Shown: positions 9,501-53,167, counted from the stretch's first letter. The stretch: 60,520 nt of DNA from a virus (IMGVR_UViG_3300042507_002862:1-60520), one strand, 5' to 3'. Numbers and translations are program-made. Notes: generated by a model from the letters alone, not told the origin.

Positions 9501-10250
9501 CCGGAACACATGCGGAAGAAGGCGAGCATCCCGCTGCCACCAGACCTTCCTTTCTTTGGGCTGCCAGCAGACTCGCCGCTACGACGTTACCTGTCCAACA
9601 TCGATTTGTTTTACGCCGGACCCGTCAATCTAGTTTCTTCTGGCACTGGCAACAGCTTGCTGGACAAGGCAGGTAGCGGTATTAAGAACACGTTGCTCAA
9701 TGTGCTGGGCCAGAGCAACCCGCTCATCAAAGGCCCGCTGGAAGTCCTGACCAACAGACAGTTCTATTCCGGCCGAGAGATGTCCGACTTGTACTCCATG
9801 CTGGAACAACCCCTGGCGCCAGCGGGATTGGGCCAAGTTGGCCGATTGGCGGAGCAGGCTATCTCCAACGCTCCCGGCGGCTCGCGCCTGCTGGGTGTCG
9901 CGCGGCAGCTGCTGGATGACCGGATCCCCAATTTTGTAGACCGCCTGCCCAAGGTGTTCTTCAACGCTGGAACCGGCCTGACCTTTGAGGACATCGACCA
10001 AGAGAGAACCAAGCAGCAGGCGGCGCGCCAGATGCTCAACAAGATGCTTGAGTCCACCCCCGGTGTCCGCACGTACGAAAACGTCACCGTCCCCGACGAA
10101 GTCCTGCGCTCCATGCCCAAGCAGCAGAGGGACATGTACCTGCTCTATAAGATCGTCCAGTCCGAAGCCGCCAAGCGGGCACGGGACAAGAAGAAGGCAG
10201 AGTTGGCACTAGATCCCCTCCAGGTTCTAGGGGTGACGCAGCAGTTCTAG
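6528..10250 (+). CDS. Large putative internal virion / DNA ejection protein
   Basis: 1240 aa, last gene of the virion operon; size and position resemble large podovirus core proteins. Confidence 0.65.
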   Translation: MPRSPLFDIYDPDGLLQQQAQLGLLPRNDEELDPLGIAPLGKRKAQLSDLMPEEEKRGMLQTLASAGSSGLAGLGWLLDTPGAIVRGGLSGGPGKALSALWDTTDERVDGRELLRQYGMVGDQDNWGNFGGGLAAELLLDPLTYASLGLNQIVGKGAKTAAGNIVQTAGLLDDFGVHARNVLGKGEREALREATARSVLGAVPEGAARDAAMRDFLGAGGTEAMMDQPLARMNRISLPGFSSDATDLYGKAIGDWAAKTGDALGESMMTNPYTGRIARGLQSAFDPSVMGFVDRDKQLDAQTIMAARKQRERADRLALSGLQYDANQALREAGSSLSDTDLSDALRVVAEGGDAPSSLSQYLDLPAVETLMNYVSGYRDEAVEQAKRLGLPLEEFRSRTGGDWFPRQQLAFDRPQVPQWPEGTVPPERLKRQQTRGSKPVAFDDNLSRGRDEAYDVMGQSDTLNRMSLDADLQQALRGAKNEDVRGILERWFADPQNNVPPKMRDASLDDFIQREDGSVDWSQASGPSNDLYGWMDSMDDEGNYLYKAPALPANHPLNLQAQSLRDQLQAVPHGSNDPNLLSSLRAQLSAVSEQIPMAEREVWRDKLHTRLADFVRGMDPQHAATGLPVFGQNSFNELSRYVLGRGRTEVNAQEMLKILKRQAENTAADAVTGGVNYTAADALKALGMTGETAPDVLRETLGVNSLDDISFNKKYIDDWSKTLERGKTPPELSPLLESYDNYTKRFKALALLWPSRYSRDAYSGAFSAATKKAFSPSDWLTGTQINNGDYAGLLRKIKDLPRYRDLPTDDAKLRQYLIEQGAEGLGTSTANDELLSGAGNAGLRGMYPGAVAPETESLLDRAKRATWRDWLNPFSISTASGNTNPILEAGDRAAQFTDAGNRHGSYLTLIRKGYAPNEAARIANLTQVDYRPEAFTNFERDVLKRAFPFYSYTKGITPLIADQLATNPAGMMGQSIRALNRGGQATEQNFTPEHMRKKASIPLPPDLPFFGLPADSPLRRYLSNIDLFYAGPVNLVSSGTGNSLLDKAGSGIKNTLLNVLGQSNPLIKGPLEVLTNRQFYSGREMSDLYSMLEQPLAPAGLGQVGRLAEQAISNAPGGSRLLGVARQLLDDRIPNFVDRLPKVFFNAGTGLTFEDIDQERTKQQAARQMLNKMLESTPGVRTYENVTVPDEVLRSMPKQQRDMYLLYKIVQSEAAKRARDKKKAELALDPLQVLGVTQQF

Positions 10251-11068
10251 CGCATCCCGGCCATATCTAGGCTAGGCACAGCCCGCTTCAGATCCGACAG
10301 AATCACGGGGTCTAGGTAGTGCCGCTTCATGCCGGGGGTCAGATGACCTAAGTGTCCACTGGCGTCGATGCCAGCCAATTGGGCGTAAGTCGCGCTACTT
10401 CTCCGCAGGTATTTGCCTGACCCTGTCAGACCCGCACGCTTGACCAGTGCGCGCATGGCCACTATCATCCGGCTCCTTCCGACGAGGTTTCCGAAAATCT
10501 TCGGGCCGCGCCGGGGAAGCGAACGGATCGCTTCCAGAGCATTGGCGTCAAGGACGATGACATGCTGCTGCCTTGTTTTCTGCAGAACCGTAGCCAGACG
10601 ATCCCCTCGCAGGGAATCGTAGGTAATGGCCAGCAGATCCCCCAGCCGCAGGCCGCTGCTGTAGCCGACCAGAATCCACGCGGGAAGCAGGATTCGGTGC
10701 GGGCAATGGAGCGTACCCCCCGGCATCTCCGCGGCTACCGCAAGCAGGTGGCGCATCTCGTCATGGGTCCAAGCGCGGACCATCGGCAAGGTGTGCTTGA
10801 CACGGCGGATCGGCCGTGTACAATCGTTCACCACAAGGCCGTCTCGGAGGGCGGCTCGTCGCAGGGTGCTAAGCATCCGGCGATGGTTGTTCACCGTGGA
10901 GGCGGCGAGATGACCAAGGGCATGCGTGAGGTACGCATCAATGTTGCTGACGGTCAAGTCGGCCACCCCCCAAGGGAGCCGCTTGGTCAGCACAACGAGT
11001 TGCTCGCGGTAACCGGGGGAAGCCCCCGATTGGAGGGCGTAAGCCTCCGCGAACTCTCTGAGAGTCAT
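10247..11068 (-). CDS. int: Tyrosine recombinase / phage integrase
   Basis: Motifs YSSGLRLGDLL (R), LQKT (K), GKYLRRSSAT (HxxR position), HLGH and RHY (Y); N-terminal SAM-like core-binding region; start placed at MTLREF (11068). Confidence 0.9.
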   Translation of the reverse strand: MTLREFAEAYALQSGASPGYREQLVVLTKRLPWGVADLTVSNIDAYLTHALGHLAASTVNNHRRMLSTLRRAALRDGLVVNDCTRPIRRVKHTLPMVRAWTHDEMRHLLAVAAEMPGGTLHCPHRILLPAWILVGYSSGLRLGDLLAITYDSLRGDRLATVLQKTRQQHVIVLDANALEAIRSLPRRGPKIFGNLVGRSRMIVAMRALVKRAGLTGSGKYLRRSSATYAQLAGIDASGHLGHLTPGMKRHYLDPVILSDLKRAVPSLDMAGMR

Positions 11069-11123
11069 GTTGTTTTCGGCAAGTTTGTGGATCTGGTTGA
11101 GGGGGGTGAGACTACCCCCACTT

Positions 11124-11151
11124 TTGGATCCAGCAAGTCCCCTGCTATACT
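11124..11151 (+). promoter_or_regulatory. Sigma70-type promoter, TTGGAT-N16-TATACT with extended -10 TG
   Basis: TGcTATACT at 11143-11151; 13 nt separate it from the tRNA-like fragment. Confidence 0.55.
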
Positions 11152-11161
11152 CGGCTCGCAT

Positions 11162-13349: not shown

Positions 13350-13940
13350 ATGCTCAGACTGCGCGACTACCAAACGGAAGTGATCGAATCGCTGCTGGAC
13401 GCAATGCGCCGCGGTGTGAAGTCCACGCTCGTTGGGCTTTTCACCGGCGCCGGCAAAACCGTGATCTTCACTGCACTCGCGGATCGCATCGAAGGACGCA
13501 CGCTGATCATCGCCCCGATGCGTGAGCTTGTCTGGCAGGCAGCTGACAAGGTTCGTCAGGTCACAGACTCTGACCCCGACATAGAGATGGCCGATTACGT
13601 TGCCGAGCGCGACTACTGGCCGGCAAAGGTGGTGGTCGCATCGAAGCAGACGCTGCTGTCCAGCCGCCAAGGCGAGAAGCGATACCGCAGATTCAATGGG
13701 TTCTCTCTCGTCATTGTGGACGAGGCGCACATGCAGTGCAGCGAGCCTGTCATTGAGATGTTGAAGTTCTTCCAAGACCAAGGAGCAATGGTCGCGGGTT
13801 TCACGGCAACGCCGTTTCGGATGGACGGCAAGCCCATGCTAAGGAGTGACGCATGCAGTTCTATCAAGAGTCAGTCTGTAACTACGACCTCCAGTGGGCC
13901 ATCGCCAACGGCTGGGCAGTGCCGCCTGTTTGCAAGCTGA
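13350..13940 (+). CDS. SF2 (DEAH/ResIII-like) helicase, N-terminal ATPase domain
   Basis: LRDYQ, TGAGKT, VDEAH and TATP motifs; similarity ends at about 13840. Confidence 0.88.
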   Translation: MLRLRDYQTEVIESLLDAMRRGVKSTLVGLFTGAGKTVIFTALADRIEGRTLIIAPMRELVWQAADKVRQVTDSDPDIEMADYVAERDYWPAKVVVASKQTLLSSRQGEKRYRRFNGFSLVIVDEAHMQCSEPVIEMLKFFQDQGAMVAGFTATPFRMDGKPMLRSDACSSIKSQSVTTTSSGPSPTAGQCRLFAS

Positions 13941-14914
13941 GCCGGGTGGAGTCGCTGGATCTAAGCAAGGTCAACATTGTCGGCGGCGACTTCAACCAGA
14001 CGAAGCTCGCCGCGGAACTGAACAAGGAAAGCAACTTGCACCGCGCCTGCATGATCACCGCTGAAGAGATGGAGGGGCAGACCGTCCTCTTCACCGGCAG
14101 CGTGTTCGCAGCCAAGGGTGCGACTGAGTACCTGACCCGCAACTACGGAATCCCAGCCGTCTGTGTCTGGGGCACCATGCCTGACGAGGAGAGAGCCGAT
14201 GCACTTGCAGCCTTTAAATCCCGACAGGCCAGGGTCATTGTCAACTGTGCCCTTGTTGCCGTTGGCTTCGACTTCCCACCGACCGCAACCCTCATCCTTG
14301 CCAGACCAACCCGCTCCCGATCCTTCTGGTTGCAGTGCGTTGGCCGAGCCACTCGTCCTCTCCCCGGAGTTGTTGACGGGGACGGCCTTCATACCGCTGC
14401 CGACAGAATTGCTGCAATCGCTCGCTCCGATAAGCCTCATTTCAAAATTGTTGACTGCACAGCAGGAACTCTGGATCACACAGTCATCACAAGTGTGGAC
14501 ATGTTCTGCACCTCGCCCGACGAGGAAGTCAAAGAAGCGGTGCGTAAAGCAGCGGCGCAGTCTCCACTCTCGCAGGAAGAGATAGACGCCTTGGCTGCGG
14601 CCGAGGCGCAGAAGAAGGCGGAGAAGATCGCCAGCGCCAAGCTCATCGAAGAGATGCGCCGCAACACGCAGGGGCGGGGCGAGGGCCGCATCCACGGCAA
14701 GGATGTGGACATCACCTGGAAGGGCGTCCGCTCAGTGGGCACATACAACAACCCGCTCAAGGGAAAGTACGCCGGCTACAAGCTGTCGGAGTTGCCCGAT
14801 CACTACGTTCAATGGGCGGCTGGTAACGACAAGCTGAATGGCTGGATCAAGTCAATGTTCAGGAAGGAACTGGGGAGGAGACATGGCAGAGAAGAACGAT
14901 TTGTTAGTCGATGA
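13853..14914 (+). CDS. SF2 helicase, C-terminal domain, in a separate frame
   Basis: VGFDFP, ARPTRS and QCVGRATR motifs; C-terminal KGKY..LSELPDHYVQW module; AAGGAG RBS. Confidence 0.88.
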   Translation: MQFYQESVCNYDLQWAIANGWAVPPVCKLSRVESLDLSKVNIVGGDFNQTKLAAELNKESNLHRACMITAEEMEGQTVLFTGSVFAAKGATEYLTRNYGIPAVCVWGTMPDEERADALAAFKSRQARVIVNCALVAVGFDFPPTATLILARPTRSRSFWLQCVGRATRPLPGVVDGDGLHTAADRIAAIARSDKPHFKIVDCTAGTLDHTVITSVDMFCTSPDEEVKEAVRKAAAQSPLSQEEIDALAAAEAQKKAEKIASAKLIEEMRRNTQGRGEGRIHGKDVDITWKGVRSVGTYNNPLKGKYAGYKLSELPDHYVQWAAGNDKLNGWIKSMFRKELGRRHGREERFVSR

Positions 14915-19885: not shown

Positions 19886-20210
19886 GGCCCTGGCCCTCTC
19901 CCCCGACGATCCCTACCTACCCATCTGCGTTGAGCTATGGCGCCTCCTGAGCAGGAAGCGGGGGTACTACGGGTGTGCGGAGGAAAGCCCCCTAGAGAAC
20001 GCGCTAGGCGTTGCAGAGGACGGCATCGAACCGTGGGTTTACCAGCTTGCCAGGATCGGGGAGAAGTGCCGCCGCCTCCGGGGGATGATCGGGTCTGACA
20101 GGACACTAGCTATTAGAGAAACGCTGGCCGACATCGCCGGCCACGCCATTGTGGCCATCGCAATCAATGACAACGTGGGAGAGGATCATGCTCAACGTGA
20201 AGGTAATTAA
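19809..20210 (+). CDS. DUF1599 / nucleotide-modification-associated-domain-like protein
   Basis: K..YG, RIGEK..RL and ETLADIAGHA pattern; start uncertain. Confidence 0.55.
   Translation: MTPTTIQVSGPSSAESLRLAESALGEALALSPDDPYLPICVELWRLLSRKRGYYGCAEESPLENALGVAEDGIEPWVYQLARIGEKCRRLRGMIGSDRTLAIRETLADIAGHAIVAIAINDNVGEDHAQREGN
20101..20116 (+). promoter_or_regulatory. Putative phage late promoter GGACACT-N6-TAG
   Basis: About 70 nt upstream of the membrane/protease cassette. Confidence 0.5.
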
Positions 20211-20544
20211 GTTCCTGCTGGCCAACCAGGCTGCGCTCCTGCAGGTGGTTGCCATTGCCAAGTCTTGGCGCAAAGACCTGCCCTACGTGGAGCAATGGGC
20301 GCTGGTCGATTCGATTGCCCGCGTGCTGATCCCGATCCTGGAAGCGCAGGCCGTGTCGGTTAAGGCGCTAACGAAGCACCGCTTCCATGATGAGGACTTT
20401 GAAGAGACTGACTACGAAGCCCTGGCCTTCAGCACTGGCGTGGAGTTTGCCGCTCTCGGCATCGACTGGAAGTTGCTGATCGATGTGATCATCCCCATTA
20501 TTATTTCGATCCTCAAGGCACTTGCCGCTGGCAAAGAAGAGTGA
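20188..20544 (+). CDS. Membrane protein with a C-terminal TM helix
   Basis: 118 aa; WKLLIDVIIPIIISILKALA. Confidence 0.7.
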   Translation: MLNVKVIKFLLANQAALLQVVAIAKSWRKDLPYVEQWALVDSIARVLIPILEAQAVSVKALTKHRFHDEDFEETDYEALAFSTGVEFAALGIDWKLLIDVIIPIIISILKALAAGKEE

Positions 20545-21482
20545 GCGGGTTCGTCCATCTCCCACCCTACCGGGTCAACCTAGACGCCCCTCGCGCTCTC
20601 CAGCATGGTGTTGACTGGGGTGTCTGTTCCTACGGGATCCCCTCTCTGTGGCAGAAGTCACAGGGCGAAGGCGTGACGGTGGCGGTGATCGACAGTGGCG
20701 TGGCCAAGCACCCTGCCCTGGACGATGCGGTGGTTGACTACCGCAACTTCACCAGCGACTCCGATGCCCATGACACGCTCGGTCATGGCACGCATGTGAG
20801 TGGGATCATCGCCGCCCGCAGCGGGCTGGCCAAAGGGATTGCCCCCGCCTCCAAGATCCTGTCGCTGAAGGTCTTGGGGCACAGCGGCATGGGAAGCAAC
20901 GAGTGGGTGGCGCAGGCCGTGCGTCATGCCGTCGAAGCCAAGGCGCAGATCATCTCCATGTCCTTGGGGTCTAGCCGCACGGACGATGGGGTGCATACCG
21001 CCCTGCGAGAAGCGTACGCCGCCGGCATTGTGGTGGTCTGTGCTGCAGGAAACGACGGTGGCTCGGTCAACTACCCTGCTGCCTACCAAGAAACGGTGGC
21101 CGTTGGTGCGGTCGATAGCCACGGCAATGCCTGTGAGTTCTCCAGCCGCGGGAAGGAGATCGCGGTCGCAGCACCAGGGCAGGACATCACCAGCACATGG
21201 CTGGCCAATGGCTATGCCACCGTGAGCGGTACAAGCATGGCCGCGCCGTTCGTCTCCGGTGTGCTGGCCTTGTACATCAGCGCACAGCACAAGCTGGATC
21301 GCACCGTCAACCATGCCGATGTGATGAAGGCACTGTCCACCACCTGCAAGGACGTTGGCGAGCAAGGCCATGACCACGTCTACGGCTGGGGCTTGGTCGA
21401 TCCGCACAAGCTGCTGAACTTCACCATGCAGGCGAACATCGGCGGCGTCACCATCTTCATCCCCGGAGCCAAGATCCTATGA
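20541..21482 (+). CDS. Subtilisin-like serine protease (S8)
   Basis: Complete triad VAVIDSG / GHGTHVSG / GTSMAAP and oxyanion motif AAGN; no signal peptide or I9 propeptide. Confidence 0.95.
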   Translation: MSGFVHLPPYRVNLDAPRALQHGVDWGVCSYGIPSLWQKSQGEGVTVAVIDSGVAKHPALDDAVVDYRNFTSDSDAHDTLGHGTHVSGIIAARSGLAKGIAPASKILSLKVLGHSGMGSNEWVAQAVRHAVEAKAQIISMSLGSSRTDDGVHTALREAYAAGIVVVCAAGNDGGSVNYPAAYQETVAVGAVDSHGNACEFSSRGKEIAVAAPGQDITSTWLANGYATVSGTSMAAPFVSGVLALYISAQHKLDRTVNHADVMKALSTTCKDVGEQGHDHVYGWGLVDPHKLLNFTMQANIGGVTIFIPGAKIL

Positions 21483-21691
21483 CCACAGTTCAGATCCTCG
21501 CCCTCGTCGCCGTGCTGGTTGCCGTAGTCCTGACCTACCTGCCCCTCCACACCCTGAAGCTGCCGGCCGGCAAGCCGTCTGTGCTGAAGCAGATCGAAGC
21601 GGTTGTCGCCATCCGCGACTCGCGCACCGACGAGCCAGTGGTTACTGCATGCAACACCCTCCTCGCTGCCCTGCTCCAGGTGAAGCCATGA
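21479..21691 (+). CDS. Small protein with an N-terminal TM helix
   Basis: 70 aa; ILALVAVLVAVVLTYL. Confidence 0.7.
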   Translation: MTTVQILALVAVLVAVVLTYLPLHTLKLPAGKPSVLKQIEAVVAIRDSRTDEPVVTACNTLLAALLQVKP

Positions 21692-22077
21692 AGCATCTGC
21701 CCGTGATCATAGCGGTGGTGGTAGCGGCGCTGGCCTTTGTGCCCGCCGCCAAGAAAGCGGACGGCCCGGTCGCAGCTGCGATGGCAAGTGCCAGCCGATC
21801 TGACCGCGCCCACCTGAAGGGAATCTACCTGTCGCTGGCCGATGTCACTGAGAAGGACAACGGCAAACTCATCAGCACCGTAGGCATGTGGCGACAGCTG
21901 CATATCAACACGCTGAAGCTGGCCGCTGCAGACATGCGTGGCAAGTACGCTGGGCTGGACGTTGCCGTTGAGAAGGTGATGGCCGAGAAGTTCCCGATGG
22001 ATGATGTACCACTTAGCACCTCGCTAGTGAACCAGATCGCAGCTGCATGCCGGGAGGTCGCGAAGCAGAGTGAGTGA
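21688..22077 (+). CDS. Exported or membrane-anchored helical protein
   Basis: 129 aa; MKHLPVIIAVVVAALAFVPA signal sequence. Confidence 0.7.
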   Translation: MKHLPVIIAVVVAALAFVPAAKKADGPVAAAMASASRSDRAHLKGIYLSLADVTEKDNGKLISTVGMWRQLHINTLKLAAADMRGKYAGLDVAVEKVMAEKFPMDDVPLSTSLVNQIAAACREVAKQSE

Positions 22078-24205
22078 CTTCGTACCGCTCAAAGCCTACG
22101 ACGATGGCATGCAGGGCTGGATCAACAGCGCCCGCGAGCGCGTCTTATGGCAGGAGTCCCAGCCCCGGCCGATCTACTCTGAGCCGAATAGCATGGGGTC
22201 CGGCGACGGCAAGCGTGCCCTGCTCTGGCAGTACGTTCGCAAGCTAGACCCACTGTCGTTCACGGAAGTTCAGACGGTAGGAGATTGCTTCGTTGCGGGC
22301 ACCTTGGTTCGCATGGGCGACGGGACCGAAAAGCCCATCGAAGCTATCTCAACAGGCGATGAGGTGGCGTCCCCATTTGGTGGCATTCGCAGGGTACTGT
22401 CTGTCTTTAGCAAGCCGTACCAAGGCACCGTATGCAGCCTTACCGCGGAAGGCTGTATGGATTCCGTGACGGCAACCGAAGACCACCGCTTTGTGTCGTT
22501 TGTTAACAAACAAGAGTTCATCTGGGAGTCTGCTGGTGGCCTGTCTGTTAGTGACCGCATGTTCGTACCGCGCACAGAAATTACCAGAGAAGCGCCGCAT
22601 GTGTTTGACCTATCTGGCGAGCATGGCTGCGCCTCCGATCCGAACGAATTACCCGACGCGCCTACACACAACAGCCGCAGGCTGAAAGCTGATGACGGCA
22701 TGGTGCGCGTCACAAATGGAAAGTATCAGTGCCGCCGACACGTTGAGCTAGACGCAGAAGTGGCATGGCTTATTGGTCTATGGCTGGCGGAAGGGTCTAC
22801 CGACAAAAACAAGAACGGCGAACCAATATCGTTGACGCTCAACTTGGCAAGCGACGAAATGCTGATAGCCAGCAAGGCCAAGAGCATTGTTCAGTCTCGT
22901 TTCGGAACGCCTGCCAAGATCGTAACCATTCCATCAAAGCCGTCTTGCCTGTTTGTTAACATCGCAAGCACGCCGCTGGCTCGCTTAGTGTACCGCATCT
23001 GCGGAAACGGGAACGTGTACAACAAGCGAGTGCCAAAAGAGATACTGACTTCCTGCCGGTCGGTGCGCATGGCATGTCTGCGGGGATGGATGGAAGGCGA
23101 CGGTTGCGTGATGAACAAGCCACGCTCTGGTCGGCCTCAGTACAAAATGTGCAAGGCAAGCGGCGTCTCTGTATGCCGCCCGCTTGTGCGAGACATGAAA
23201 TACCTGGCGGTTTCCTGCGGCGTGCGATGCACGGACACGGCACGCAAGGCGCGCGGGCGTTCACGCGCGGCATCAGAGCTTCACTTCTACGGAGAAGGCG
23301 CGGTGGCTGTTATGCCGTCGCGCTTAAAGACACCAGCGGCAACACGCGGTTCGACTGTGTGGCGAGTGGCTGGTGGGTTTGCTCCGCGAGTCAAATCCAA
23401 TGTCCGCTCGCAGTTTGCAGGCACCGTGTACTGCATAGAAGTTGAAGAGGATCACGCCTTCGTTGCTAACGGATACGCCGTTCACAACTGTGTCAGCCAC
23501 TCCAGTCGGAACGCCCGGGATTGCACGCGCGCGGTGCAGGTATTGCTAGAGAACAGGCCAGAGTCTTTCGTTAAGCGCGGCGCAACGGAGCCCACCTACG
23601 GGGCGCGTGGCCACAGCGGCGAGGGCATGGTCCCCGCCAGGGCGGCGACGTTTGAAAGGGATGTGGGTTTCTGCATCCGGCAGAAGTACGAACCAGTTGA
23701 TCTCTCCAAGTACAACGGCAACATCGGCACCAACTGGGGATCGTCCGGCGTGCCCAACGCAGTTGCAGACATCTGCCGCCAGCACAAGGTGGGGATCATT
23801 CGACAGATCACCACCGTGCGCGATGCGATGGACGCACTGGCCAGTGGGTACGGCCTTCACTCAGGTCAGTACGCCAAGTGGGCTGGCTCACCCAACTCAC
23901 AGAACATCCATCCGCGACAGGCGGGCGGCTGGTCGCACGCAATGGCCACAGTCGGAATGGACGACACCAAAGAGTTCTGGCCGTTCACTGTATTTTTTAT
24001 CGCCAATTCTTGGGGCGGTTGGAACCAGCCAGTGAAAGACTGGCCGTCCTCCTACCCAGAACAAGTACCAGGGATGATCGTCACCAAGGCAGATGACTGG
24101 GCCGTGTGCGTCACCGATGGTGACTGCTGGGCCTACGGAAACGTCGATGGATTCCCCCCTCAGAAGCTGCCCGACTACGGCGCTATCGGACTACTGCAGA
24201 CATGA
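22070..24205 (+). CDS. Papain-like cysteine peptidase (C1-like) precursor containing an intein
   Basis: The spliced extein reads Q-T-V-G-D-C-V-S (Gln plus catalytic Cys), SHAM..VG (His) and ANSWG (Asn); 310 aa after splicing. Confidence 0.85.
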   Translation: MSDFVPLKAYDDGMQGWINSARERVLWQESQPRPIYSEPNSMGSGDGKRALLWQYVRKLDPLSFTEVQTVGDCFVAGTLVRMGDGTEKPIEAISTGDEVASPFGGIRRVLSVFSKPYQGTVCSLTAEGCMDSVTATEDHRFVSFVNKQEFIWESAGGLSVSDRMFVPRTEITREAPHVFDLSGEHGCASDPNELPDAPTHNSRRLKADDGMVRVTNGKYQCRRHVELDAEVAWLIGLWLAEGSTDKNKNGEPISLTLNLASDEMLIASKAKSIVQSRFGTPAKIVTIPSKPSCLFVNIASTPLARLVYRICGNGNVYNKRVPKEILTSCRSVRMACLRGWMEGDGCVMNKPRSGRPQYKMCKASGVSVCRPLVRDMKYLAVSCGVRCTDTARKARGRSRAASELHFYGEGAVAVMPSRLKTPAATRGSTVWRVAGGFAPRVKSNVRSQFAGTVYCIEVEEDHAFVANGYAVHNCVSHSSRNARDCTRAVQVLLENRPESFVKRGATEPTYGARGHSGEGMVPARAATFERDVGFCIRQKYEPVDLSKYNGNIGTNWGSSGVPNAVADICRQHKVGIIRQITTVRDAMDALASGYGLHSGQYAKWAGSPNSQNIHPRQAGGWSHAMATVGMDDTKEFWPFTVFFIANSWGGWNQPVKDWPSSYPEQVPGMIVTKADDWAVCVTDGDCWAYGNVDGFPPQKLPDYGAIGLLQT
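22286..23488 (+). mobile_element. Intein with LAGLIDADG homing endonuclease (401 aa)
   Basis: Block A CFVAGT, block B TEDHRF, WLIGLWLAEGS and LRGWMEGDG motifs, block F VYCIEVEEDHAF, block G VHN/C. Confidence 0.95.
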
Positions 24206-24453
24206 TCAGCATCATCTTCTCCCTCCTGTTTCCGGTGCCCTCGTTCCCCGAAAGGGTCGCAGTTGAGGCAGCGTACGTGATCACCACCTACACGGCACCC
24301 AAGGCCAAGTGCTGTGGCGCATGCAAGAACGGGAAGATCACGCACGGGGATGGGCATGTGACCGACTGCCCCTGCCCTGCCGACTGCAAGTGCCGCACCA
24401 AGTCTGTGCTTATCCCACTCAAGGACTGCAAGACATGCTTGCCACTGAAATAG
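24202..24453 (+). CDS. Small exported Cys-rich protein
   Basis: Hydrophobic N-terminus; CCGAC.NG.I..GDGH...CPC..DCKC..CKTC. Confidence 0.65.
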   Translation: MISIIFSLLFPVPSFPERVAVEAAYVITTYTAPKAKCCGACKNGKITHGDGHVTDCPCPADCKCRTKSVLIPLKDCKTCLPLK

Positions 24454-24740
24454 CGAACCGCTGCGCCCAAGAGACGGGCGCCGGCCGCATGTCCAGGCAC
24501 AGCGAAGAGGTTGCGCTGATCGCAATCGCCACGGCCAACCCCGACCGGCGCGCTTGGAAGCAGCAGATCCGCAGTGAGTTCCGTGCCCGCCACCCTGAGT
24601 GCGGGTCGGTCCTTCTGATGATCCTTCTGCCCGTCATCATCAACCTCATCAGTGCATGGCTAGCCAAATGGATTTTCAGCGAACACCCCGCAAGCCTGGA
24701 TCATCTGAAGATGGAAGCGAATACCGCTTTGAAGTCATAG
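24435..24740 (+). CDS. Membrane protein
   Basis: 101 aa; VLLMILLPVIINLISAWL TM segment. Confidence 0.65.
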   Translation: MLATEIANRCAQETGAGRMSRHSEEVALIAIATANPDRRAWKQQIRSEFRARHPECGSVLLMILLPVIINLISAWLAKWIFSEHPASLDHLKMEANTALKS

Positions 24741-24895
24741 CCCGGTACGACGGGCACACGCACATGTATACGTACCCCGAAAGCGAAACCTCCAAGGCCA
24801 CACGCATGATCAAACTGCATGTGGAAGAGGGGCAGCTGCATCCCTATGCGGGACTCATGTTGATCTCAATGGTGCGAGGGGTAGATGTCTCCTGA
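24668..24895 (+). CDS. Hypothetical protein
   Basis: Fills the gap in the operon; start uncertain. Confidence 0.45.
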   Translation: MDFQRTPRKPGSSEDGSEYRFEVIARYDGHTHMYTYPESETSKATRMIKLHVEEGQLHPYAGLMLISMVRGVDVS

Positions 24896-25112
24896 AACTG
24901 AACTGTGGATGCTCGGCATATCGGTTGCCGCAGCCGTCATCCCGTGGGCTTTCAGCCTGCATGCCAAGGTCGCGGTCATCGCCAATAGCGTGGAGAGTTT
25001 GCCCCGCATGCTGGACGAACTGCGACAGACGATAGAGGAACATGAGGTTCGTCTCAATCAGCATGACAAAAAGATTGAAGCTCTCGGCCAAGCGTCAACG
25101 ACTGGTCGTTGA
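24885..25112 (+). CDS. N-terminal TM plus coiled-coil protein (holin/spanin-like architecture)
   Basis: 75 aa; LWMLGISVAAAVIPWAF followed by a heptad pattern. Confidence 0.55.
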   Translation: MSPETELWMLGISVAAAVIPWAFSLHAKVAVIANSVESLPRMLDELRQTIEEHEVRLNQHDKKIEALGQASTTGR

Positions 25113-25629
25113 GTACATGCCGCTAGCAGAAATGCTGGCCAAGTATTTCCTGCAGAACCGCCCGCACTGGCAGCGAGGCGTGCTAGTAGCAGACCTGCAG
25201 AGCGAAGGCTACCTCGCCATCTGCAAAGCGGCTCGCACCTATGATCCCAAGCGACTGCCCTACCCAAAGGCGTACTTCGCACGGGCCTGCCTCAATGCGA
25301 TGTACAAGCAGATCAAGAAGTTGAGCCGTCAGCCTGGCGACATACGCATCACGCTGGAAGAAGCGGCCGACCTGCTGCCAGAGTTCGACCATTTGGATCA
25401 CATCAGACTGGCGATAGCTGATCTCCCAGAGTGGGAGCAAGAGCTAGCTACCGACAGGTTCATCCACGGCAAGACACTCAGAGCGCTGGCTGAGTCGCAT
25501 GAAATTTCGCTTCGCGCTGCTGCTCGGCGGTCCACTGCTCTGGCGAAAGTCTTGGCGGGATCCTTGGGTATCCAGCTACCGCAGCCCGGTGCAGATTCCT
25601 TGTGTCAGTCAGGCCATAGTAGCCCCTGA
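25063..25629 (+). CDS. Phage-encoded sigma70-family factor (region 2 plus region 4; FliA/SigF-like)
   Basis: LVVEYMPLA..., DLQSEGYLAICKAARTYDP; region-4 HTH LPEWEQEL...GKTLRALAE. Confidence 0.85.
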   Translation: MTKRLKLSAKRQRLVVEYMPLAEMLAKYFLQNRPHWQRGVLVADLQSEGYLAICKAARTYDPKRLPYPKAYFARACLNAMYKQIKKLSRQPGDIRITLEEAADLLPEFDHLDHIRLAIADLPEWEQELATDRFIHGKTLRALAESHEISLRAAARRSTALAKVLAGSLGIQLPQPGADSLCQSGHSSP

Positions 25630-26251
25630 CACCCTTGTGATTGGGCGGCTTGCGAAGTTCCTTCTTGCATAGGTGCAGGCAGATGGCGGAGAAGGACTTC
25701 CCCTCCTCGCGCATGACCACAACCAGACTGCCGATGTCACGCTCCGGTTGGTAGGGAACGAACGCCTTGTTCTTCACCACCCAACCAAGCGGTCGCAACT
25801 TACCGCGTGGTCGGAAGTGGGCGTTGAGATAGGAATGGATCTCACGCTGTCGCTGCCCGGAAATCTGACTGCTGTACTGGGCGAACGCGGACATGGTGTT
25901 GTAGCTCAACTCGCCTTGGATCGTCATCACATCCAGGCTGTTGTCCAAGAACTTCAGCTGAACGCCAAGCTCTTTGCACTGAGCCAAGGTCTGCGCCGCA
26001 TCCAGCACCGACCTGAACACACGGTCGAAGGTGCAGAACACCACCACATCGCCGGCCTTCAGCTTGTCCCATAGCACCCTGCCCTGCCGGCGCTTGTGCA
26101 AGGGGATCTTGTACGCCGACTGATCCTCGTCAACGAACACCTCCCCAAACTCCAAGCCCGACTGCTCAGCGTACGCACGCAGCCGGATAGCCTGGGCATC
26201 AGCTGAGTTCTCTTGCTTGTCCGTAGACACACGGGCATATCCGTACAGCAT
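25478..26251 (-). CDS. Serine recombinase (resolvase catalytic domain plus short recombinase-like tail)
   Basis: YGYARVSTDKQ (catalytic Ser), DRVFRS; C-terminal PLGW..E..GKSFSAIC. Confidence 0.9.
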   Translation of the reverse strand: MLYGYARVSTDKQENSADAQAIRLRAYAEQSGLEFGEVFVDEDQSAYKIPLHKRRQGRVLWDKLKAGDVVVFCTFDRVFRSVLDAAQTLAQCKELGVQLKFLDNSLDVMTIQGELSYNTMSAFAQYSSQISGQRQREIHSYLNAHFRPRGKLRPLGWVVKNKAFVPYQPERDIGSLVVVMREEGKSFSAICLHLCKKELRKPPNHKGVRGYYGLTDTRNLHRAAVAGYPRIPPRLSPEQWTAEQQREAKFHATQPAL

Positions 26252-36799: not shown

Positions 36800-36816
36800 G
36801 GACACTGACTATGTAG
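36800..36816 (+). promoter_or_regulatory. Putative phage late promoter GGACACT-N7-TAG
   Basis: Intergenic, 23 nt before the scaffold start. Confidence 0.55.
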
Positions 36817-44032: not shown

Positions 44033-44048
44033 GGACACTTGCTAATAG
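44033..44048 (+). promoter_or_regulatory. Putative phage late promoter GGACACT-N6-TAG
   Basis: Intergenic, directly before the portal RBS. Confidence 0.55.
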
Positions 44049-46046: not shown

Positions 46047-46563
46047 CGTGAAGCGCGCCGGCGCTGACGCTATTGCCGCCTACAAGCGCGCCCTACCCTA
46101 CGGCGAGAAGTGGGCTGCGATGGTCGCCACGCAAACTCCACCTGGAACGTCTGGCACCGACCGGGCGTTCATGGAGCGCCGCATGAACAACCAGCAGCTG
46201 GATGACATGCCTCCTCGCCAAGCCAAGTACGTGGCGGCTGAAACCAAGAAGGCCGGCATCAACATCTCTGGCAAGCATTACGTTGGCGGGCTGGCAGATA
46301 ACCGCGGCTGGAGAGATCCAGAGGCGTGGGTGTCGAACAACGATGACATCCTGAAGGTCGCCCACAAGCGCCGCCTGTCTGTGACCGGCACGGTGAACTA
46401 TGACCCGGGCCCGGCGGATCCGAAGCGCAAGCTCATCAGTGAAAAGATTGTCCGCGAGGAAGTGGCCAAGGCCAAGCGGCAGAACCCGTCCGCAAAGACG
46501 AGTGACCTGCGCGAGAAGGTGATTGAGAAGCATGCCTACCGTGCCAAGGGGAGGGGCGTGTGA
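46030..46563 (+). CDS. Hypothetical protein
   Basis: 177 aa. Confidence 0.7.
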   Translation: MEIPADVKRAGADAIAAYKRALPYGEKWAAMVATQTPPGTSGTDRAFMERRMNNQQLDDMPPRQAKYVAAETKKAGINISGKHYVGGLADNRGWRDPEAWVSNNDDILKVAHKRRLSVTGTVNYDPGPADPKRKLISEKIVREEVAKAKRQNPSAKTSDLREKVIEKHAYRAKGRGV

Positions 46564-46916
46564 GCTACAGGCTCGTTCAGTTCCGGCGCGGTACAGCCGC
46601 AGAGTGGGCTGCAACCAACCCGATCCTTGCGGCCGGCGAGATGGGGTATGAGCGGGATGTGCCGCTTAGTGACCCCTCGTCCACGGACACTTTCAGTTAC
46701 ACGGACCCGGCCTTTGGTTCTGGTGCCATCAAAATTGGCGACGGCGTGACGAGGTGGGCCGACTTGCCGTACCTACTCAACGCTCTGAGATTCTCGCTCC
46801 CATCGTCCAGCGACGTGGAAGTAACGGACATCAAGACTGGCGATGTGTTGCGCTGGTCAAACGGCAAGTGGCGCAATTACGCGGAAACGCAACTTTTAGA
46901 CGGGGGTAACTTCTGA
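46560..46916 (+). CDS. Fibre-associated protein with an Mtd_N-like N-terminus
   Basis: QFRRGTAAEW...NPILAAGE.GYE...KIGDG; ends in LLDGGNF. Confidence 0.75.
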   Translation: MSYRLVQFRRGTAAEWAATNPILAAGEMGYERDVPLSDPSSTDTFSYTDPAFGSGAIKIGDGVTRWADLPYLLNALRFSLPSSSDVEVTDIKTGDVLRWSNGKWRNYAETQLLDGGNF

Positions 46917-52030: not shown

Positions 52031-53167
52031 ATGCTGACCTACTTCGACGCCGTTGAGCATTTGATCACCAGCAGCTTTGGTGGTCCGCAGGACGCAGAGC
52101 AGGCCGACATTCGCACGTCCATCCAGCGAGCGTATAGCGAAATCTCCACGCTCCGTGACTGGAACTACTACCAGACCCACGGGCGCATCAAGTTCTCCAT
52201 CAACTGGAATGGAACCGTCACCTACAGCCAGAACACAAGGTTCTTTGACTTGGCATCTGGTGACGCATTTCCGAATAATTCGGTGTTGTGTCGCATGCGC
52301 CTCAACAACACGGTCGCCAAGATTGCCACCCGCGTAAGCAGCACCCGCCTGCTGTGCGACCCGATCCTCACGCCATCTAGCGATCTGGTAAGCCCGACCG
52401 CGGCAACGCTGTACCAGGACACCTTCCCACTGCCGTCTGATTTCCGGTCCTTGGATTCGCCCATTGACCATGTGGCATGGACGCGATTCATCTACGTGTC
52501 GGCCGACCAAGCGATGAAGCTGGAGAATGCGAACAACCTCGCGGGCCCTCCTCATGCGTGGACGGTGATCAAGGATCCGCAGGGAACGGGGTGGGCGATT
52601 AAGGTCATCGGCTATCCGGTGGCAAACTCTAATCTGGACTTCACCTACCGGCGCCTTCCGCGGCGGTTGAGGATCTCTGGGCATGAGGCTAGTTCGCGGC
52701 AAGGCACTGTCACTGTGTCTGGGGTGGAGGTCACGGGAACTGGCACGGCGTTCTCGGCGGCTATGGTGGGGTCTGTGCTTCGCCTGGGAACGTCCGCGGA
52801 CTTCCCTGGAAGCGACGGCTCCATGGCGCCCTACCAAGGAGAGGCCGTCATTGCGGCTGTGTCTAGCGCCACGTCTTGCACTCTGGCCACGCCCCTCACG
52901 GCCACGGGGGTTAAGTACCTCATTACCGACATAGTGGACATGCCCACCGGAATGCACAACGGGTTCCTGTCCTGCTCAGCGTACTGGCTGGCTCGCACGC
53001 GGAACGCCAAGCCTGACAACGCCTTCGCCATGTACCAGCGCGACCTTCGTCTGGCCATGGAGTCGGACGCGCTGACGCCATTCCAGCAACCGCAGCGAGT
53101 CATCTTTGACGCCATGGCATGGCGGACACCCTTGCAGTCCGACAACTTCGACGGTGGCAACCCGTGA
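52031..53167 (+). CDS. Putative head-tail adaptor / tail tubular protein A-like
   Basis: 378 aa; W.Y, LPSDF and helical C-terminus; position before the nozzle. Confidence 0.6.
   Translation: MLTYFDAVEHLITSSFGGPQDAEQADIRTSIQRAYSEISTLRDWNYYQTHGRIKFSINWNGTVTYSQNTRFFDLASGDAFPNNSVLCRMRLNNTVAKIATRVSSTRLLCDPILTPSSDLVSPTAATLYQDTFPLPSDFRSLDSPIDHVAWTRFIYVSADQAMKLENANNLAGPPHAWTVIKDPQGTGWAIKVIGYPVANSNLDFTYRRLPRRLRISGHEASSRQGTVTVSGVEVTGTGTAFSAAMVGSVLRLGTSADFPGSDGSMAPYQGEAVIAAVSSATSCTLATPLTATGVKYLITDIVDMPTGMHNGFLSCSAYWLARTRNAKPDNAFAMYQRDLRLAMESDALTPFQQPQRVIFDAMAWRTPLQSDNFDGGNP

What the first reader, a model, noticed from the sequence alone, without database searches (positions are those of the whole stretch)
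20188..25112. Candidate protease-based lysis/egress cassette in a phage with no recognisable endolysin
Seen: nine coupled genes comprising a subtilisin (S8), a papain-like C1 peptidase, six TM or signal-peptide proteins (one Cys-rich, one TM plus coiled coil) and one small soluble ORF, preceded by the putative late-promoter motif at 20101. I recognise no amidase, muramidase, transglycosylase, M15, M23 or CHAP gene in the circular genome. Established: tailed phages normally encode a holin, a peptidoglycan hydrolase and spanins. Inference: two signal-less proteases released by holin-like proteins could attack a protein-rich envelope, as reported for some planctomycetes, which would be a non-canonical lysis system.
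Basis: partly seen in the sequence, partly recalled or inferred. Interest (0 to 1): 0.85.

Follow-up and report, generated by a model that had tools for sequence, protein, structure and literature searches.

The report
Protease-based phage lysis module candidate
An uncultured 60-kb phage, like at least 44 other phages that share its unusual papain-like enzyme, shows no recognisable cell-wall-cutting enzyme and instead carries a conserved block of membrane proteins and two proteases that probably opens the host envelope from the outside face of the cell membrane.

Summary
Window 20188-25112 is a run of nine overlapping + strand genes. They are a Pfam-certain S8 subtilase, six small hydrophobic proteins, one small soluble ORF and a 711-aa ORF.

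The enzyme family is large (527 viral contigs, 1321 clusters at 50% identity). It always travels with the membrane-anchored upstream gene g33, and 15 of 149 cluster representatives carry an N-terminal membrane-anchored extension that is g33-like where tested. Charge bias places the enzyme outside the cytoplasm in 13 of those 15. The Cys-rich downstream gene g35 is a lipoprotein in some lineages.

Ten peptidoglycan-hydrolase or peptidoglycan-binding families gave no hit above cut-off in 44-45 phage records carrying the enzyme.

Best reading (0.5): an egress module with the papain-fold enzyme as the endolysin stand-in. S8 linkage is confined to the ~60-kb clade. Substrate and host are unproven. 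Planctomycetota is supported only for distant relatives.

The parts
20101..20116 (+). Conserved motif GGACACTAGCTATTAG inside gene g29, 87 nt before the g30 start. The same motif precedes two late (structural) operons. It is a candidate promoter or other regulatory site.
   Evidence: There are three + strand copies in the window (20101, 36800, 44033) against 0 in 300 Markov resamplings. The identical 16-mer lies at the same relative place in 8 related loci. G003 has 3 copies. The function as a promoter is inferred.
20188..20544 (+). g30, 118 aa, with a hydrophobic N-terminal stretch and a C-terminal TM segment. Holin or antiholin candidate of no known family.
   Evidence: Hydropathy segments at 6-24 and 87-116. 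No Pfam or PHROG family. tblastn homologues in 51 of 80 loci.
20541..21482 (+). S8 subtilase, 313 aa. It is a catalytic domain only, with no signal peptide and no I9 propeptide domain. Motifs D51, H82 and S232.
   Evidence: PF00082 at E 3.4e-55 and phrog_3677 'protease' at 1.1e-74. Motif positions. No TM segment. Present in 54 of 80 loci. In L022 the homologue carries its own intein at the HG|TH catalytic-His motif.
21479..21691 (+). g32, 70 aa, with an N-terminal TM segment. Holin-like candidate.
   Evidence: Hydropathy segment 1-28. No family match. Present in 46 of 80 loci.
21688..22077 (+). g33, 129 aa: an N-terminal signal-anchor or signal peptide followed by a four-helix domain. It is the universal partner of the C1-like enzyme.
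   Evidence: TM segment 1-25. AlphaFold model with pLDDT 88, all helical, with no specific fold match. hhalign gives 96.8% probability (E 2.6e-10) to an alignment of the N-terminal extensions of 14 long C1-like proteins. hhalign gives 97.6% (E 4.8e-12) to the gene just upstream of the C1-like gene in five distant low-GC phages.
22070..22285 (+). N-extein of the C1-like peptidase (aa 1-72). It contains a pro-segment-like N-terminus and the oxyanion-hole-like Gln68.
   Evidence: Q68 is invariant in A1. Model residues 2-45 align with the C-terminal part of C1A propeptides, while mature enzymes align only from residues ~28-47, most from ~43-47.
22286..23488 (+). Intein of 401 aa with a LAGLIDADG homing-endonuclease domain, inserted directly before the catalytic Cys.
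   Evidence: LAGLIDADG_3 scores 34.5 bits (cut-off 22.5). Intein_splicing scores 33.5 bits (cut-off 35.8). Hint-type hits are also present. The sequence shows Cys1, TEDH, two LAGLIDADG-like motifs, and a terminal His-Asn followed by Cys+1. Intein-less homologues read straight across the junction. The same intein is found in L051 and L058.
23489..24205 (+). C-extein of the C1-like peptidase (238 aa). It carries Cys474 (= Cys73 of the spliced protein), His623 and Asn646 within an NSWG motif.
24202..24453 (+). g35, 83 aa, with a hydrophobic N-terminus and a Cys-rich domain bearing the signature C..C..G.I.HGDGH.T.CPCP.
   Evidence: 9 Cys residues. The signature is conserved in all 25 loci read. 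Lipobox versions occur in L089, L091 and L069. The motif is fused to the C-terminus of the C1-like proteins P0178 (E 6e-4) and P0201 (E 0.012).
24435..24740 (+). g36, 101 aa, with one central TM segment.
   Evidence: Hydropathy segment 53-82. Present in 43 of 80 loci. No family match.
24599..24895 (+). g36b, a small soluble ORF whose start is uncertain; the first ATG gives about 80 aa.
   Evidence: No TM segment. tblastn homologues in 45 of 80 loci. Only chance-level Pfam hits.
24885..25112 (+). g37, 75 aa, with an N-terminal TM segment and a coiled-coil tail. It looks like an i-spanin, XhlA or holin.
   Evidence: TM segment 7-32. Only weak hits: DUF7365 at 6.6e-4, XhlA at 0.073, phrog_1296 holin at 0.0022, phrog_1193 hemolysin at 0.0058, phrog_739 Rz-like spanin at 0.016. 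Present in 53 of 80 loci.
25042..25629 (+). Sigma-70-family factor, the last gene of the same co-directional string.
   Evidence: Sigma70_r2 at E 7.4e-6 (26.1 bits, cut-off 24). PHROG sigma-factor families. Syntenic in 53 of 80 loci.

Best explanation
The block is the phage's envelope-opening (lysis or egress) module.

Its core is a papain-fold (C1A-like) cysteine peptidase that does the job an endolysin does in other tailed phages. It works on the outer side of the cytoplasmic membrane, together with the membrane-anchored helical protein g33 and the Cys-rich protein g35.

In this phage the peptidase is made as a precursor. It first has to splice out an intein that interrupts its active site. 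It also carries a short N-terminal segment in the position where C1A zymogens carry the cleft-blocking part of their propeptide.

The enzyme has no export signal of its own. It would therefore reach the periplasm through holes made by one or more of the small TM proteins g30, g32 and g36. g37 (TM plus coiled coil) would act late, like a spanin or XhlA.

The S8 subtilase is an addition of this ~60-kb clade. It either activates the peptidase by clipping its pro-segment or g33, or it attacks a second, proteinaceous envelope layer.

**Shown:** the folds, the motifs, the intein, the gene linkage, the fusions, the predicted topology, the shared motif and the lack of detectable peptidoglycan hydrolases.

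**Inferred:** the lysis role, the order of events, the activation by S8 and the substrate. Given a lysis role, I put envelope protein at about 55% and the peptidoglycan peptide at about 45%.
For: 1. **No canonical endolysin was detected.**
- 70 Pfam queries and 30 PHROG queries on the window gave no hydrolase.
- Six-frame searches over records that carry the C1-like gene gave: PF00959 0 of 44; PF01510, PF01464, PF01471, PF00877, PF01183 and PF00182 0 of 45 each; PF13539, PF01551 and PF05838 1 of 45 each, all below cut-off.
- 32 of the 45 records are at least 90% complete. They include complete 158-kb and 170-kb phages.

2. **Rosetta-stone fusions and topology.**
- 23 of 149 cluster representatives carry 120 or more residues before the C1-like domain, and 15 of those 23 start with a TM segment. 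Charge bias gives N-in/C-out for 13 of the 15, a tie for 2 and N-out for none.
- An alignment of 14 such extensions is homologous to g33 (96.8%, E 2.6e-10).
- P0178 and P0201 end in the g35 motif.
- g35 homologues have lipoboxes in L089, L091 and L069.

3. **Neighbourhood across very different phages.** The C1-like gene is flanked by a g33 homologue (97.6%, E 4.8e-12) and by small TM, signal-peptide or lipoprotein genes.

4. **Late-type co-regulation.** The motif is shared with the portal operon and one other late operon.

5. **Pro-form likeness.** Pro-enzymes align from model residues 2-8, whereas mature enzymes align from residues ~28-47, most from ~43-47.

6. **A second protease recurs.** S8 is present in every close-clade locus with upstream sequence. 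Secreted Trypsin_2 proteases lie beside the C1-like gene in L059 and L081.

7. **Weak lysis-category hits for g37.** Its only function-bearing hits are holin, XhlA/hemolysin and spanin families.

8. **Strong constraint on the enzyme.** Identity is 60-88% across the 120 homologues listed. 37 of 149 representatives carry insertions at three or more active-site-proximal sites.
Against: - There is no biochemical or expression evidence of any kind.
- Absence of endolysins rests on profile HMMs in a genome where most ORFs match nothing. A divergent muramidase could be hidden. Only two proteins were folded.
- 24 called ORFs of 90 aa or less were not hmmscanned.
- GH19 and GH108 rang in none of the control genomes, so their zeros carry little weight.
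- No comparison set of phages lacking the C1-like gene was run, so the baseline detection rate of endolysins is only recalled knowledge.
- In the window the cassette follows replication and recombination genes, not the structural genes.
- In the Planctomycetota-labelled prophages L091 and L087 the module sits directly after the capsid gene, which would also fit a morphogenetic role.
- The S1-type protease neighbour was seen in only 2 loci.
- g30, g32, g36 and g37 have no significant family match. Their counterparts in distant phages show no detectable homology.
- The window's own C1-like and S8 proteins lack export signals, so the periplasmic site of action is extrapolated from fused relatives.
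- The g37 hits all have E > 5e-4.
Confidence: 0.5

Rival explanations
1. The module acts on the envelope but not for lysis. It could remodel or strip periplasmic or outer-membrane proteins, for example to destroy receptors, exclude superinfecting phages or keep progeny from sticking to debris. The real endolysin would be one of the many unannotated ORFs.
For: The same membrane and periplasm evidence applies as for the best reading. Most ORFs have no family match, so a hidden lysin cannot be excluded. C1A-fold and S8 enzymes are, by established knowledge, protein proteases and not murein hydrolases. A classification paper, read in passages only, places the peptidoglycan-acting papain-like enzymes in the NlpC/P60-CHAP cluster (PMC10318531).
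Against: Accessory functions of this type are usually patchy and fast-evolving. Here the enzyme is 60-88% identical across the clade, is present in 527 viral contigs, and is an intein hot-spot. No canonical lysin family reached its cut-off in 44-45 records, including jumbo phages.
Confidence: 0.2
2. The proteases are morphogenetic. They would process head, tail or ejection proteins, or each other, during assembly. The TM genes would be unrelated neighbours.
For: In prophages L091 and L087 the module follows the capsid gene directly. No prohead protease family was recognised in the window by Pfam or PHROGs. High conservation is typical of morphogenetic genes.
Against: 15 of 149 representatives are membrane-anchored, and 13 of those 15 have a predicted outside orientation. 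The g35 partner is a lipoprotein in three lineages. In the window and in 54 loci the genes lie about 12 kb or more from the capsid-portal genes, among TM genes. L091 already has a protease-capsid fusion-sized capsid gene.
Confidence: 0.1
3. The proteases are cytoplasmic host-takeover or counter-defence enzymes. They would degrade host proteins for amino acids or destroy defence proteins. The small TM proteins would be unrelated.
For: The window's S8 and C1-like proteins have no export signal. The cassette lies downstream of early or middle replication genes and upstream of a sigma factor.
Against: The fusions to an N-in/C-out anchor and to the g35 motif argue against it. So do the obligate linkage to g33 and the motif shared with late operons.
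Confidence: 0.08

Closest known systems
Holin-endolysin-spanin lysis cassettes of tailed phages (lambda S-R-Rz/Rz1; SAR or signal-anchored endolysins such as P1 Lyz), recalled from established knowledge
   Same: Both are a tight cluster of small membrane proteins around one soluble or membrane-tethered hydrolase, followed by a TM-plus-coiled-coil protein and, in relatives, a small lipoprotein. Both show late-type regulation. Some relatives tether the enzyme by an N-terminal anchor, as SAR endolysins do.
   Different: No muramidase, transglycosylase, amidase, M15, M23, CHAP or NlpC/P60 domain is present. The hydrolase has the C1A papain fold with a pro-segment. A subtilase is co-encoded. None of the TM proteins belongs to a described holin or spanin family above threshold.
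C1A papain-family zymogens (xylellain 3ois, procathepsins B/L/K, Der p 1 pro-form)
   Different: Sequence profiles do not connect them. There is no PF00112 hit. A profile search of PDB sequences finds only chance hits. Identity is 10-17%. The pro-segment is only ~45 aa. The partner domain g33 is a membrane-anchored four-helix bundle, not an I29 domain.
Plasmodium egress cascade, in which the subtilisin SUB1 activates papain-like SERA proteases (recalled; PMC3861531 seen only in a search listing)
   Same: A subtilase and a papain-fold enzyme are deployed together at the moment a parasite must break out of its host compartment.
   Different: This is an analogy only, with no homology claimed beyond the two superfamilies. 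Whether S8 acts on the C1-like protein here is untested.
Papain-clan peptidoglycan peptidases used as endolysin domains (CHAP, NlpC/P60, Amidase_5, pseudomurein endoisopeptidases PeiW/PeiP)
   Same: They are Cys-His enzymes of the papain-like superfamily used by viruses to cut wall peptides. BFVD neighbours of the model include phage C1-domain proteins whose names mention peptidoglycan binding or muramidase.
   Different: Those families form a separate cluster from C1 (PMC10318531, passages). NlpC/P60 was 0 of 45 here. No wall-binding domain is fused in 23 of 23 longer homologues or in 10 of 10 extended forms scanned.
Inteins of phage genes (terminase, helicase, RecB-like nuclease, portal and others in mycobacteriophages; PMC5050341, abstract and passages)
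   Same: It is a class-1 intein with a LAGLIDADG endonuclease inserted at a catalytic motif of a conserved phage protein.
   Different: The hosts here are two proteases. That paper's text contains 'lysin' 0 times, 'peptidase' 0 times and 'protease' once. This family has at least three insertion sites, and some members carry two inteins.

Membership tests
Peptidase S8 (subtilases) | Match to PF00082 above the curated cut-off | tested here: met
   187.8 bits against a cut-off of 21.8, covering 288 of 288 profile positions. The six-frame search agrees.
Peptidase S8 (subtilases) | Asp-His-Ser triad in the order D...HGTH...GTSMA | tested here: met
   D51 (VIDSG), H82 (HGTH) and S232 (GTSMA) are read from the translation. 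The motif names are recalled knowledge.
Peptidase C1 (papain family, C1A) | Match to PF00112 Peptidase_C1 | tested here: not met
   There is no hit for the precursor at E <= 0.1 or for the C-extein at E <= 0.05. 0 of 120 listed homologues have any precomputed Pfam domain. In the nearest ESM-Atlas cluster only 12% of members carry PF00112.
Peptidase C1 (papain family, C1A) | Papain fold (L and R domains) by structure comparison | tested here: met
Peptidase C1 (papain family, C1A) | Catalytic Gln, Cys, His and Asn conserved and in papain order | tested here: met
   Q68, C73 and H222 are invariant and N245 is present in at least 90% of 26 sequences, followed by the invariant S-W-G. Their catalytic roles are assigned by motif likeness, not by superposition of coordinates.
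Class-1 intein with homing endonuclease | Hint/splicing domain and LAGLIDADG domain | tested here: met
   LAGLIDADG_3 scores 34.5 bits, above the 22.5 cut-off. Intein_splicing scores 33.5 bits, just under its 35.8 cut-off. Four Hint-type families match at E 4e-4 to 0.05.
Class-1 intein with homing endonuclease | Cys/Ser at position 1, His-Asn at the end, Cys/Ser/Thr at +1, and precise absence in homologues | tested here: met
   The junctions read CFVAG...VHN|C. Intein-less homologues read ...TVGDCV(A/S)H... across the junction. Splicing activity is not testable here.
Canonical phage endolysin | A peptidoglycan hydrolase domain (GH24, GH25, GH19, GH108, SLT, Amidase_2, M15, M23, NlpC/P60) | tested here: not met
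   Only three hits appeared, all below cut-off and in other records. One of them (GH108 in G013) lies antisense to a real gene.
Holin / spanin families | Match to a described holin, i-spanin or o-spanin family; lipobox on the o-spanin | tested here: inconclusive
   There are only weak PHROG hits for g37 (E 0.002-0.016). g35 has no lipobox in the window but does in L089, L091 and L069. g30, g32 and g36 match no family.
SAR / signal-anchored endolysins (works-like comparison) | N-terminal TM anchor on the lytic enzyme itself | tested here: not met
   This is not met in the window, where the C1-like N-extein has no TM segment. It is met in 15 of 149 cluster representatives of the family.

The most novel reading that the evidence does not exclude
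A widespread group of uncultured phages, at least some of them infecting Planctomycetota, has dispensed with peptidoglycan hydrolases. They break out of their hosts by a protease cascade: the S8 subtilase (or an S1 protease in other lineages) activates a membrane-associated papain-fold zymogen. That enzyme then dismantles a load-bearing proteinaceous envelope layer from the periplasmic side. This would be a bacterial-virus counterpart of the SUB1-SERA egress cascade of malaria parasites. Intein splicing at the catalytic Cys would add a further post-translational gate.
Probability: 0.2. Interest if true: 0.9.

Novelty: new variant of a known kind. Interest (0 to 1): 0.72.

Why it matters
If the reading is right, this papain-fold family would be a new class of phage lytic enzyme. 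It is large (1321 clusters at 50% identity, 527 viral contigs) and currently annotated only as 'hypothetical'.

It would also explain why whole groups of environmental phages, including jumbo phages, appear to lack an endolysin.

It would give a handle on the envelope of Planctomycetota, whose wall composition has long been debated (recalled knowledge).

It offers candidate enzymes for opening cells that are hard to lyse.

Independently of function, it is an intein hot-spot in proteases. That extends the known range of intein host proteins and provides a natural case where splicing rebuilds a protease active site.

Tried and rejected
- **Sequence routes to C1.** Pfam on the precursor and on the C-extein, phmmer of the C-extein against PDB sequences and a profile of A1 against PDB sequences (only chance galectin hits) did not connect the family to C1. 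Only structure did.
- **Cultured relatives.** tblastn of P0001 against 50,697 GenBank phage records gave no match, so no cultured relative was found there.
- **Fused forms.** A search for longer fused forms gave 23 of 23 intein-bearing proteins and no wall-binding fusions. Pfam on 10 N-terminally extended forms found 0 families.
- **Complex prediction.** The job with the C1-like homologue and the soluble part of g33 returned no verdict (score 0.00). It is not evidence either way.
- **ESM Atlas.** The query with g35 gave no usable hit.
- **RNA runs.** The look-up of sequencing runs listed no RNA holder.
- **Small TM proteins.** hhalign of g30, g32, g36, g37 and g35 against positional counterparts in five low-GC phages found no homology; the best was g32 at 14%.
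- **Weak GH108 hit in G013.** I judge it spurious because it lies antisense to a g64-like gene.
- **Promoter and terminator scan.** The sigma-70 and terminator scan of 18.5-27 kb was not above shuffles. The 19-mer around 20101 is unique at up to 3 mismatches; only the shorter gapped motif repeats.
- **Literature.** Six searches found no paper describing this cassette, a C1-fold endolysin or a subtilase in a phage lysis cassette. That holds only for the held library. Supplements were not available.
- **Host test.** The phylum sampling gave 4 of 400 other genomes in the phylum of G045 against 0 of 400 in the phylum of G048. This is suggestive but weak.

Full report
**What the window is.** The window is one whole IMG/VR virus record of 60,520 bp, classed linear, with CheckV completeness 100%. 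I found no terminal repeat and no tRNA gene. My own codon-bias gene call gives 89 ORFs.

Recognisable genes include:
- a P22-like portal;
- a weak terminase match;
- fn3-rich and Mtd_N tail-fibre-type proteins;
- ERF, SSB, a PDDEXK nuclease and a helicase;
- a serine recombinase and a sigma-70-family factor.

Most ORFs match nothing.

**The observation.** At 20188-25112 nine + strand genes overlap one another by 4-19 nt.
- The S8 subtilase is beyond doubt: PF00082 at 3.4e-55, with D51, H82 and S232.
- Hydropathy gives TM-like segments in g30, g32, g33, g36 and g37.
- g35 has nine Cys residues and a hydrophobic N-terminus.
- g36b is soluble.

GGACACTNNCTAN(1-2)TAG occurs three times in the window, all on the gene strand. 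One copy is at 20101, one is 40 nt before a late gene (36800) and one is 25 nt before the portal gene (44033). It occurred 0 times in 300 Markov resamplings. Relative G003 also has three copies, one at the cassette.

**The 711-aa ORF is an intein-interrupted enzyme.** Pfam sees only LAGLIDADG_3, Intein_splicing and Hint-type domains in it. Residues 73-473 begin with Cys, contain TEDH and two LAGLIDADG-like motifs, and end in His-Asn followed by Cys.

At least 402 homologues of about 310 aa lack the insert and read straight across the junction. The intein therefore sits directly before the Cys that is invariant in the family.

Instead I folded the natural intein-less homologue P0001, which is 88% identical over the C-extein, using alignment A1. 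The model has pLDDT 82.9.
- It matches C1A papain-family structures: xylellain at Foldseek E 5.7e-9.
- Q68, C73, H222 and N245-S-W-G are invariant or nearly so.
- Pro-enzymes align from model residues 2-8. Mature enzymes align from residues ~28-47, most from ~43-47. The first ~45 residues therefore occupy the place of the cleft-filling end of a C1A propeptide.

Sequence methods do not make this link. By Pfam's own test the protein is not a member of PF00112, although it has the fold and the motif order.

**Size and spread of the family.**
- 527 of 557 candidate stretches in IMG/VR encode a relative.
- A full scan of 1.84 billion representatives finds 1321 clusters at E <= 1e-3.
- There is no hit in 50,697 GenBank phage records.
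- Nearest ESM-Atlas clusters are 93-96% viral.

**Synteny.** Among the 80 loci kept, the counts by tblastn are S8 54, g33 55, g35 50, g37 53 and the sigma factor 53.

The 26 loci without S8 fall into two groups:
- three close-clade loci, of which L005 and L051 are cut short on the upstream side;
- 23 distant relatives (L057 and L059-L081, C-extein identity 39-50%) from other phage types, including 117-185 kb genomes.

So S8 linkage is a property of the ~60-kb clade only.

**What is linked everywhere.** The constant partner is g33.
- In five low-GC distant phages the gene just upstream of the C1-like gene is a g33 homologue (hhalign 97.6%, E 4.8e-12).
- 23 of 149 cluster representatives have 120 or more extra N-terminal residues. 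15 of these begin with a TM segment.
- An alignment of 14 such extensions is homologous to g33 (96.8%, E 2.6e-10).
- Flanking charges favour N-in/C-out in 13 of the 15, with none favouring the reverse. This puts the enzyme domain outside the cytoplasm.
- Two representatives (P0178, P0201) end in the g35 signature.
- g35 homologues have lipoboxes in two Planctomycetota-labelled prophage or contig copies and in one low-GC phage.
- Around the C1-like gene in ten further distant loci the neighbours are again small TM, signal-peptide or lipoprotein genes.
- In two loci (L059, L081) a signal-peptide-bearing Trypsin_2 protease lies beside it.

**Is there a hidden endolysin?**
- 70 Pfam queries, covering 65 of 89 called ORFs plus five further segments, gave no peptidoglycan hydrolase or wall-binding domain.
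- 30 PHROG queries gave none either.
- 24 ORFs of 90 aa or less were not scanned in this way.
- Six-frame family searches over the window and 44 other records carrying the C1-like gene (32 of them at least 90% complete) gave the results below.

| Family | Hits |
|---|---|
| Phage_lysozyme (PF00959) | 0 of 44 |
| Amidase_2 (PF01510) | 0 of 45 |
| SLT (PF01464) | 0 of 45 |
| PG_binding_1 (PF01471) | 0 of 45 |
| NLPC_P60 (PF00877) | 0 of 45 |
| GH25 (PF01183) | 0 of 45 |
| GH19 (PF00182) | 0 of 45 |
| M15_4 (PF13539) | 1 of 45, below cut-off |
| M23 (PF01551) | 1 of 45, below cut-off |
| GH108 (PF05838) | 1 of 45, below cut-off |

The GH108 hit lies antisense to a real gene. The controls for GH19 and GH108 rang nowhere, so their zeros weigh little.

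I ran no matched set of phages without the C1-like gene. That most complete tailed phages show such a domain is recalled knowledge.

**Host.** Of 14 loci found in the species-representative genome collection, 8 carry Planctomycetota MAG labels: Pirellulaceae, Planctomycetaceae x3, Pirellulales x2 and Thermoguttaceae x2. Two of these lie inside contigs of 0.92 and 5.5 Mb of one Thermoguttaceae MAG. One of the two sits next to a serine recombinase and a phage capsid gene, so it is a prophage.

Sampling gave 4 of 400 other genomes of that phylum with a match, against 0 of 400 in the phylum of a Rubrivivax-labelled MAG.

The close relatives of the window (59-65% identity) are on phage-sized or smaller contigs binned under six different labels. 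I read that as binning noise, so the host of this phage is open.

**Inteins.**
- 23 of 23 long homologues are intein-bearing.
- 37 of 149 representatives have split profile matches. The insertion points are near profile positions ~78 (Cys), ~227 (after His) and ~240-257.
- Some members carry two inserts, and the inserts include both mini and full-size inteins.
- In L022 the S8 gene has its own intein between HG and TH of the catalytic-His motif.
- In many relatives an EndoVII/HNH-type gene is inserted between g33 and the C1-like gene.

**Reading.** The evidence fits an envelope-directed module best. The papain-fold enzyme takes the endolysin's place and acts outside the cytoplasmic membrane together with g33 and g35. 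In this clade the small TM proteins would supply access and the S8 protease would be an activator or a second degrading enzyme.

I give this reading 0.5. The rivals are:
- a non-lytic envelope function with a hidden lysin (0.2);
- morphogenetic processing (0.1);
- cytoplasmic takeover or counter-defence (0.08).

The substrate question, peptidoglycan peptide against envelope protein, is untouched by my data.

The complex-prediction job gave no verdict and no RNA run was listed. Neither counts as evidence.

Six literature searches in the held library found no description of such a cassette. Supplementary files could not be consulted.

Noticed in passing
L022:7137-9377 (+): The S8 homologue of this relative is a 746-aa ORF with a LAGLIDADG-type intein inserted between HG and TH of the catalytic-His motif. 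Both proteases of the cassette are therefore intein targets in different phages.
   Followed up: partly
proteins P0148, P0179, P0181, P0216, P0242 and 32 others: 37 of 149 cluster representatives of the C1-like family have insertions at three or more different sites near active-site residues. Some carry two inserts (up to 1,041 aa). Both mini (~126-177 aa) and full-size (~345-390 aa) inserts occur.
   Followed up: partly
L010:9331-9984 (+); same ~660-bp gap in L008, L012, L014-L019, L026, L027, L034: A 217-aa Cys-rich EndoVII/HNH-like ORF is inserted between g33 and the C1-like gene in many relatives. It looks like a free-standing homing endonuclease. The window's own ORF 41383-41988 matches PHROG endonuclease VII/HNH families (5.3e-8).
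   Followed up: partly
window 13350-13940 and 13853-14914 (+): The ResIII/DEAD helicase N-terminal half and the Helicase_C half lie in two overlapping ORFs in different frames. This could be a split gene, a frameshift or a sequencing error.
   Followed up: no
window 36800-36816 and 44033-44048 (+): These are the two further copies of the motif GGACACTNNCTAN(1-2)TAG, just upstream of a late gene and of the portal gene. It may be the recognition site of the phage's own sigma factor (25042-25629).
   Followed up: partly
L059:7621-8562 and L081:11067-11921 (+): Signal-peptide-bearing Trypsin_2 (S1) proteases (E 3.5e-17 and 3.1e-11) lie next to the C1-like gene in two distant phages. They are 35% identical to each other. 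They may be a non-homologous counterpart of the S8 gene.
   Followed up: partly
window 25478-26251 (-) and 10247-11161 (-): A serine recombinase (Resolvase, 2.1e-27) converges on the cassette's end. A weak tyrosine-integrase-like ORF (24.3 bits, cut-off 27.1) lies after the structural genes. The phage may be temperate.
   Followed up: no
window 53164-56835 (+) and 46560-46916 (+): A 1223-aa protein has eight fn3 repeats plus galactose-binding-like segments. A separate small ORF carries an Mtd_N (major tropism determinant N-terminal) domain. Both are likely receptor-binding apparatus.
   Followed up: no
G048:C10:48471-49319 (+) (L105): The Rubrivivax-labelled MAG holds a second, distant C1-like copy (E 1e-30) with one in-frame TGA.
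   Followed up: no
L067:11802-12053 and equivalents in L069, L070, L071, L081: In the low-GC relatives an 83-aa two-TM 'Transglycosylase associated protein' (PF04226, 3e-7) lies a few genes downstream of the C1-like gene.
   Followed up: no
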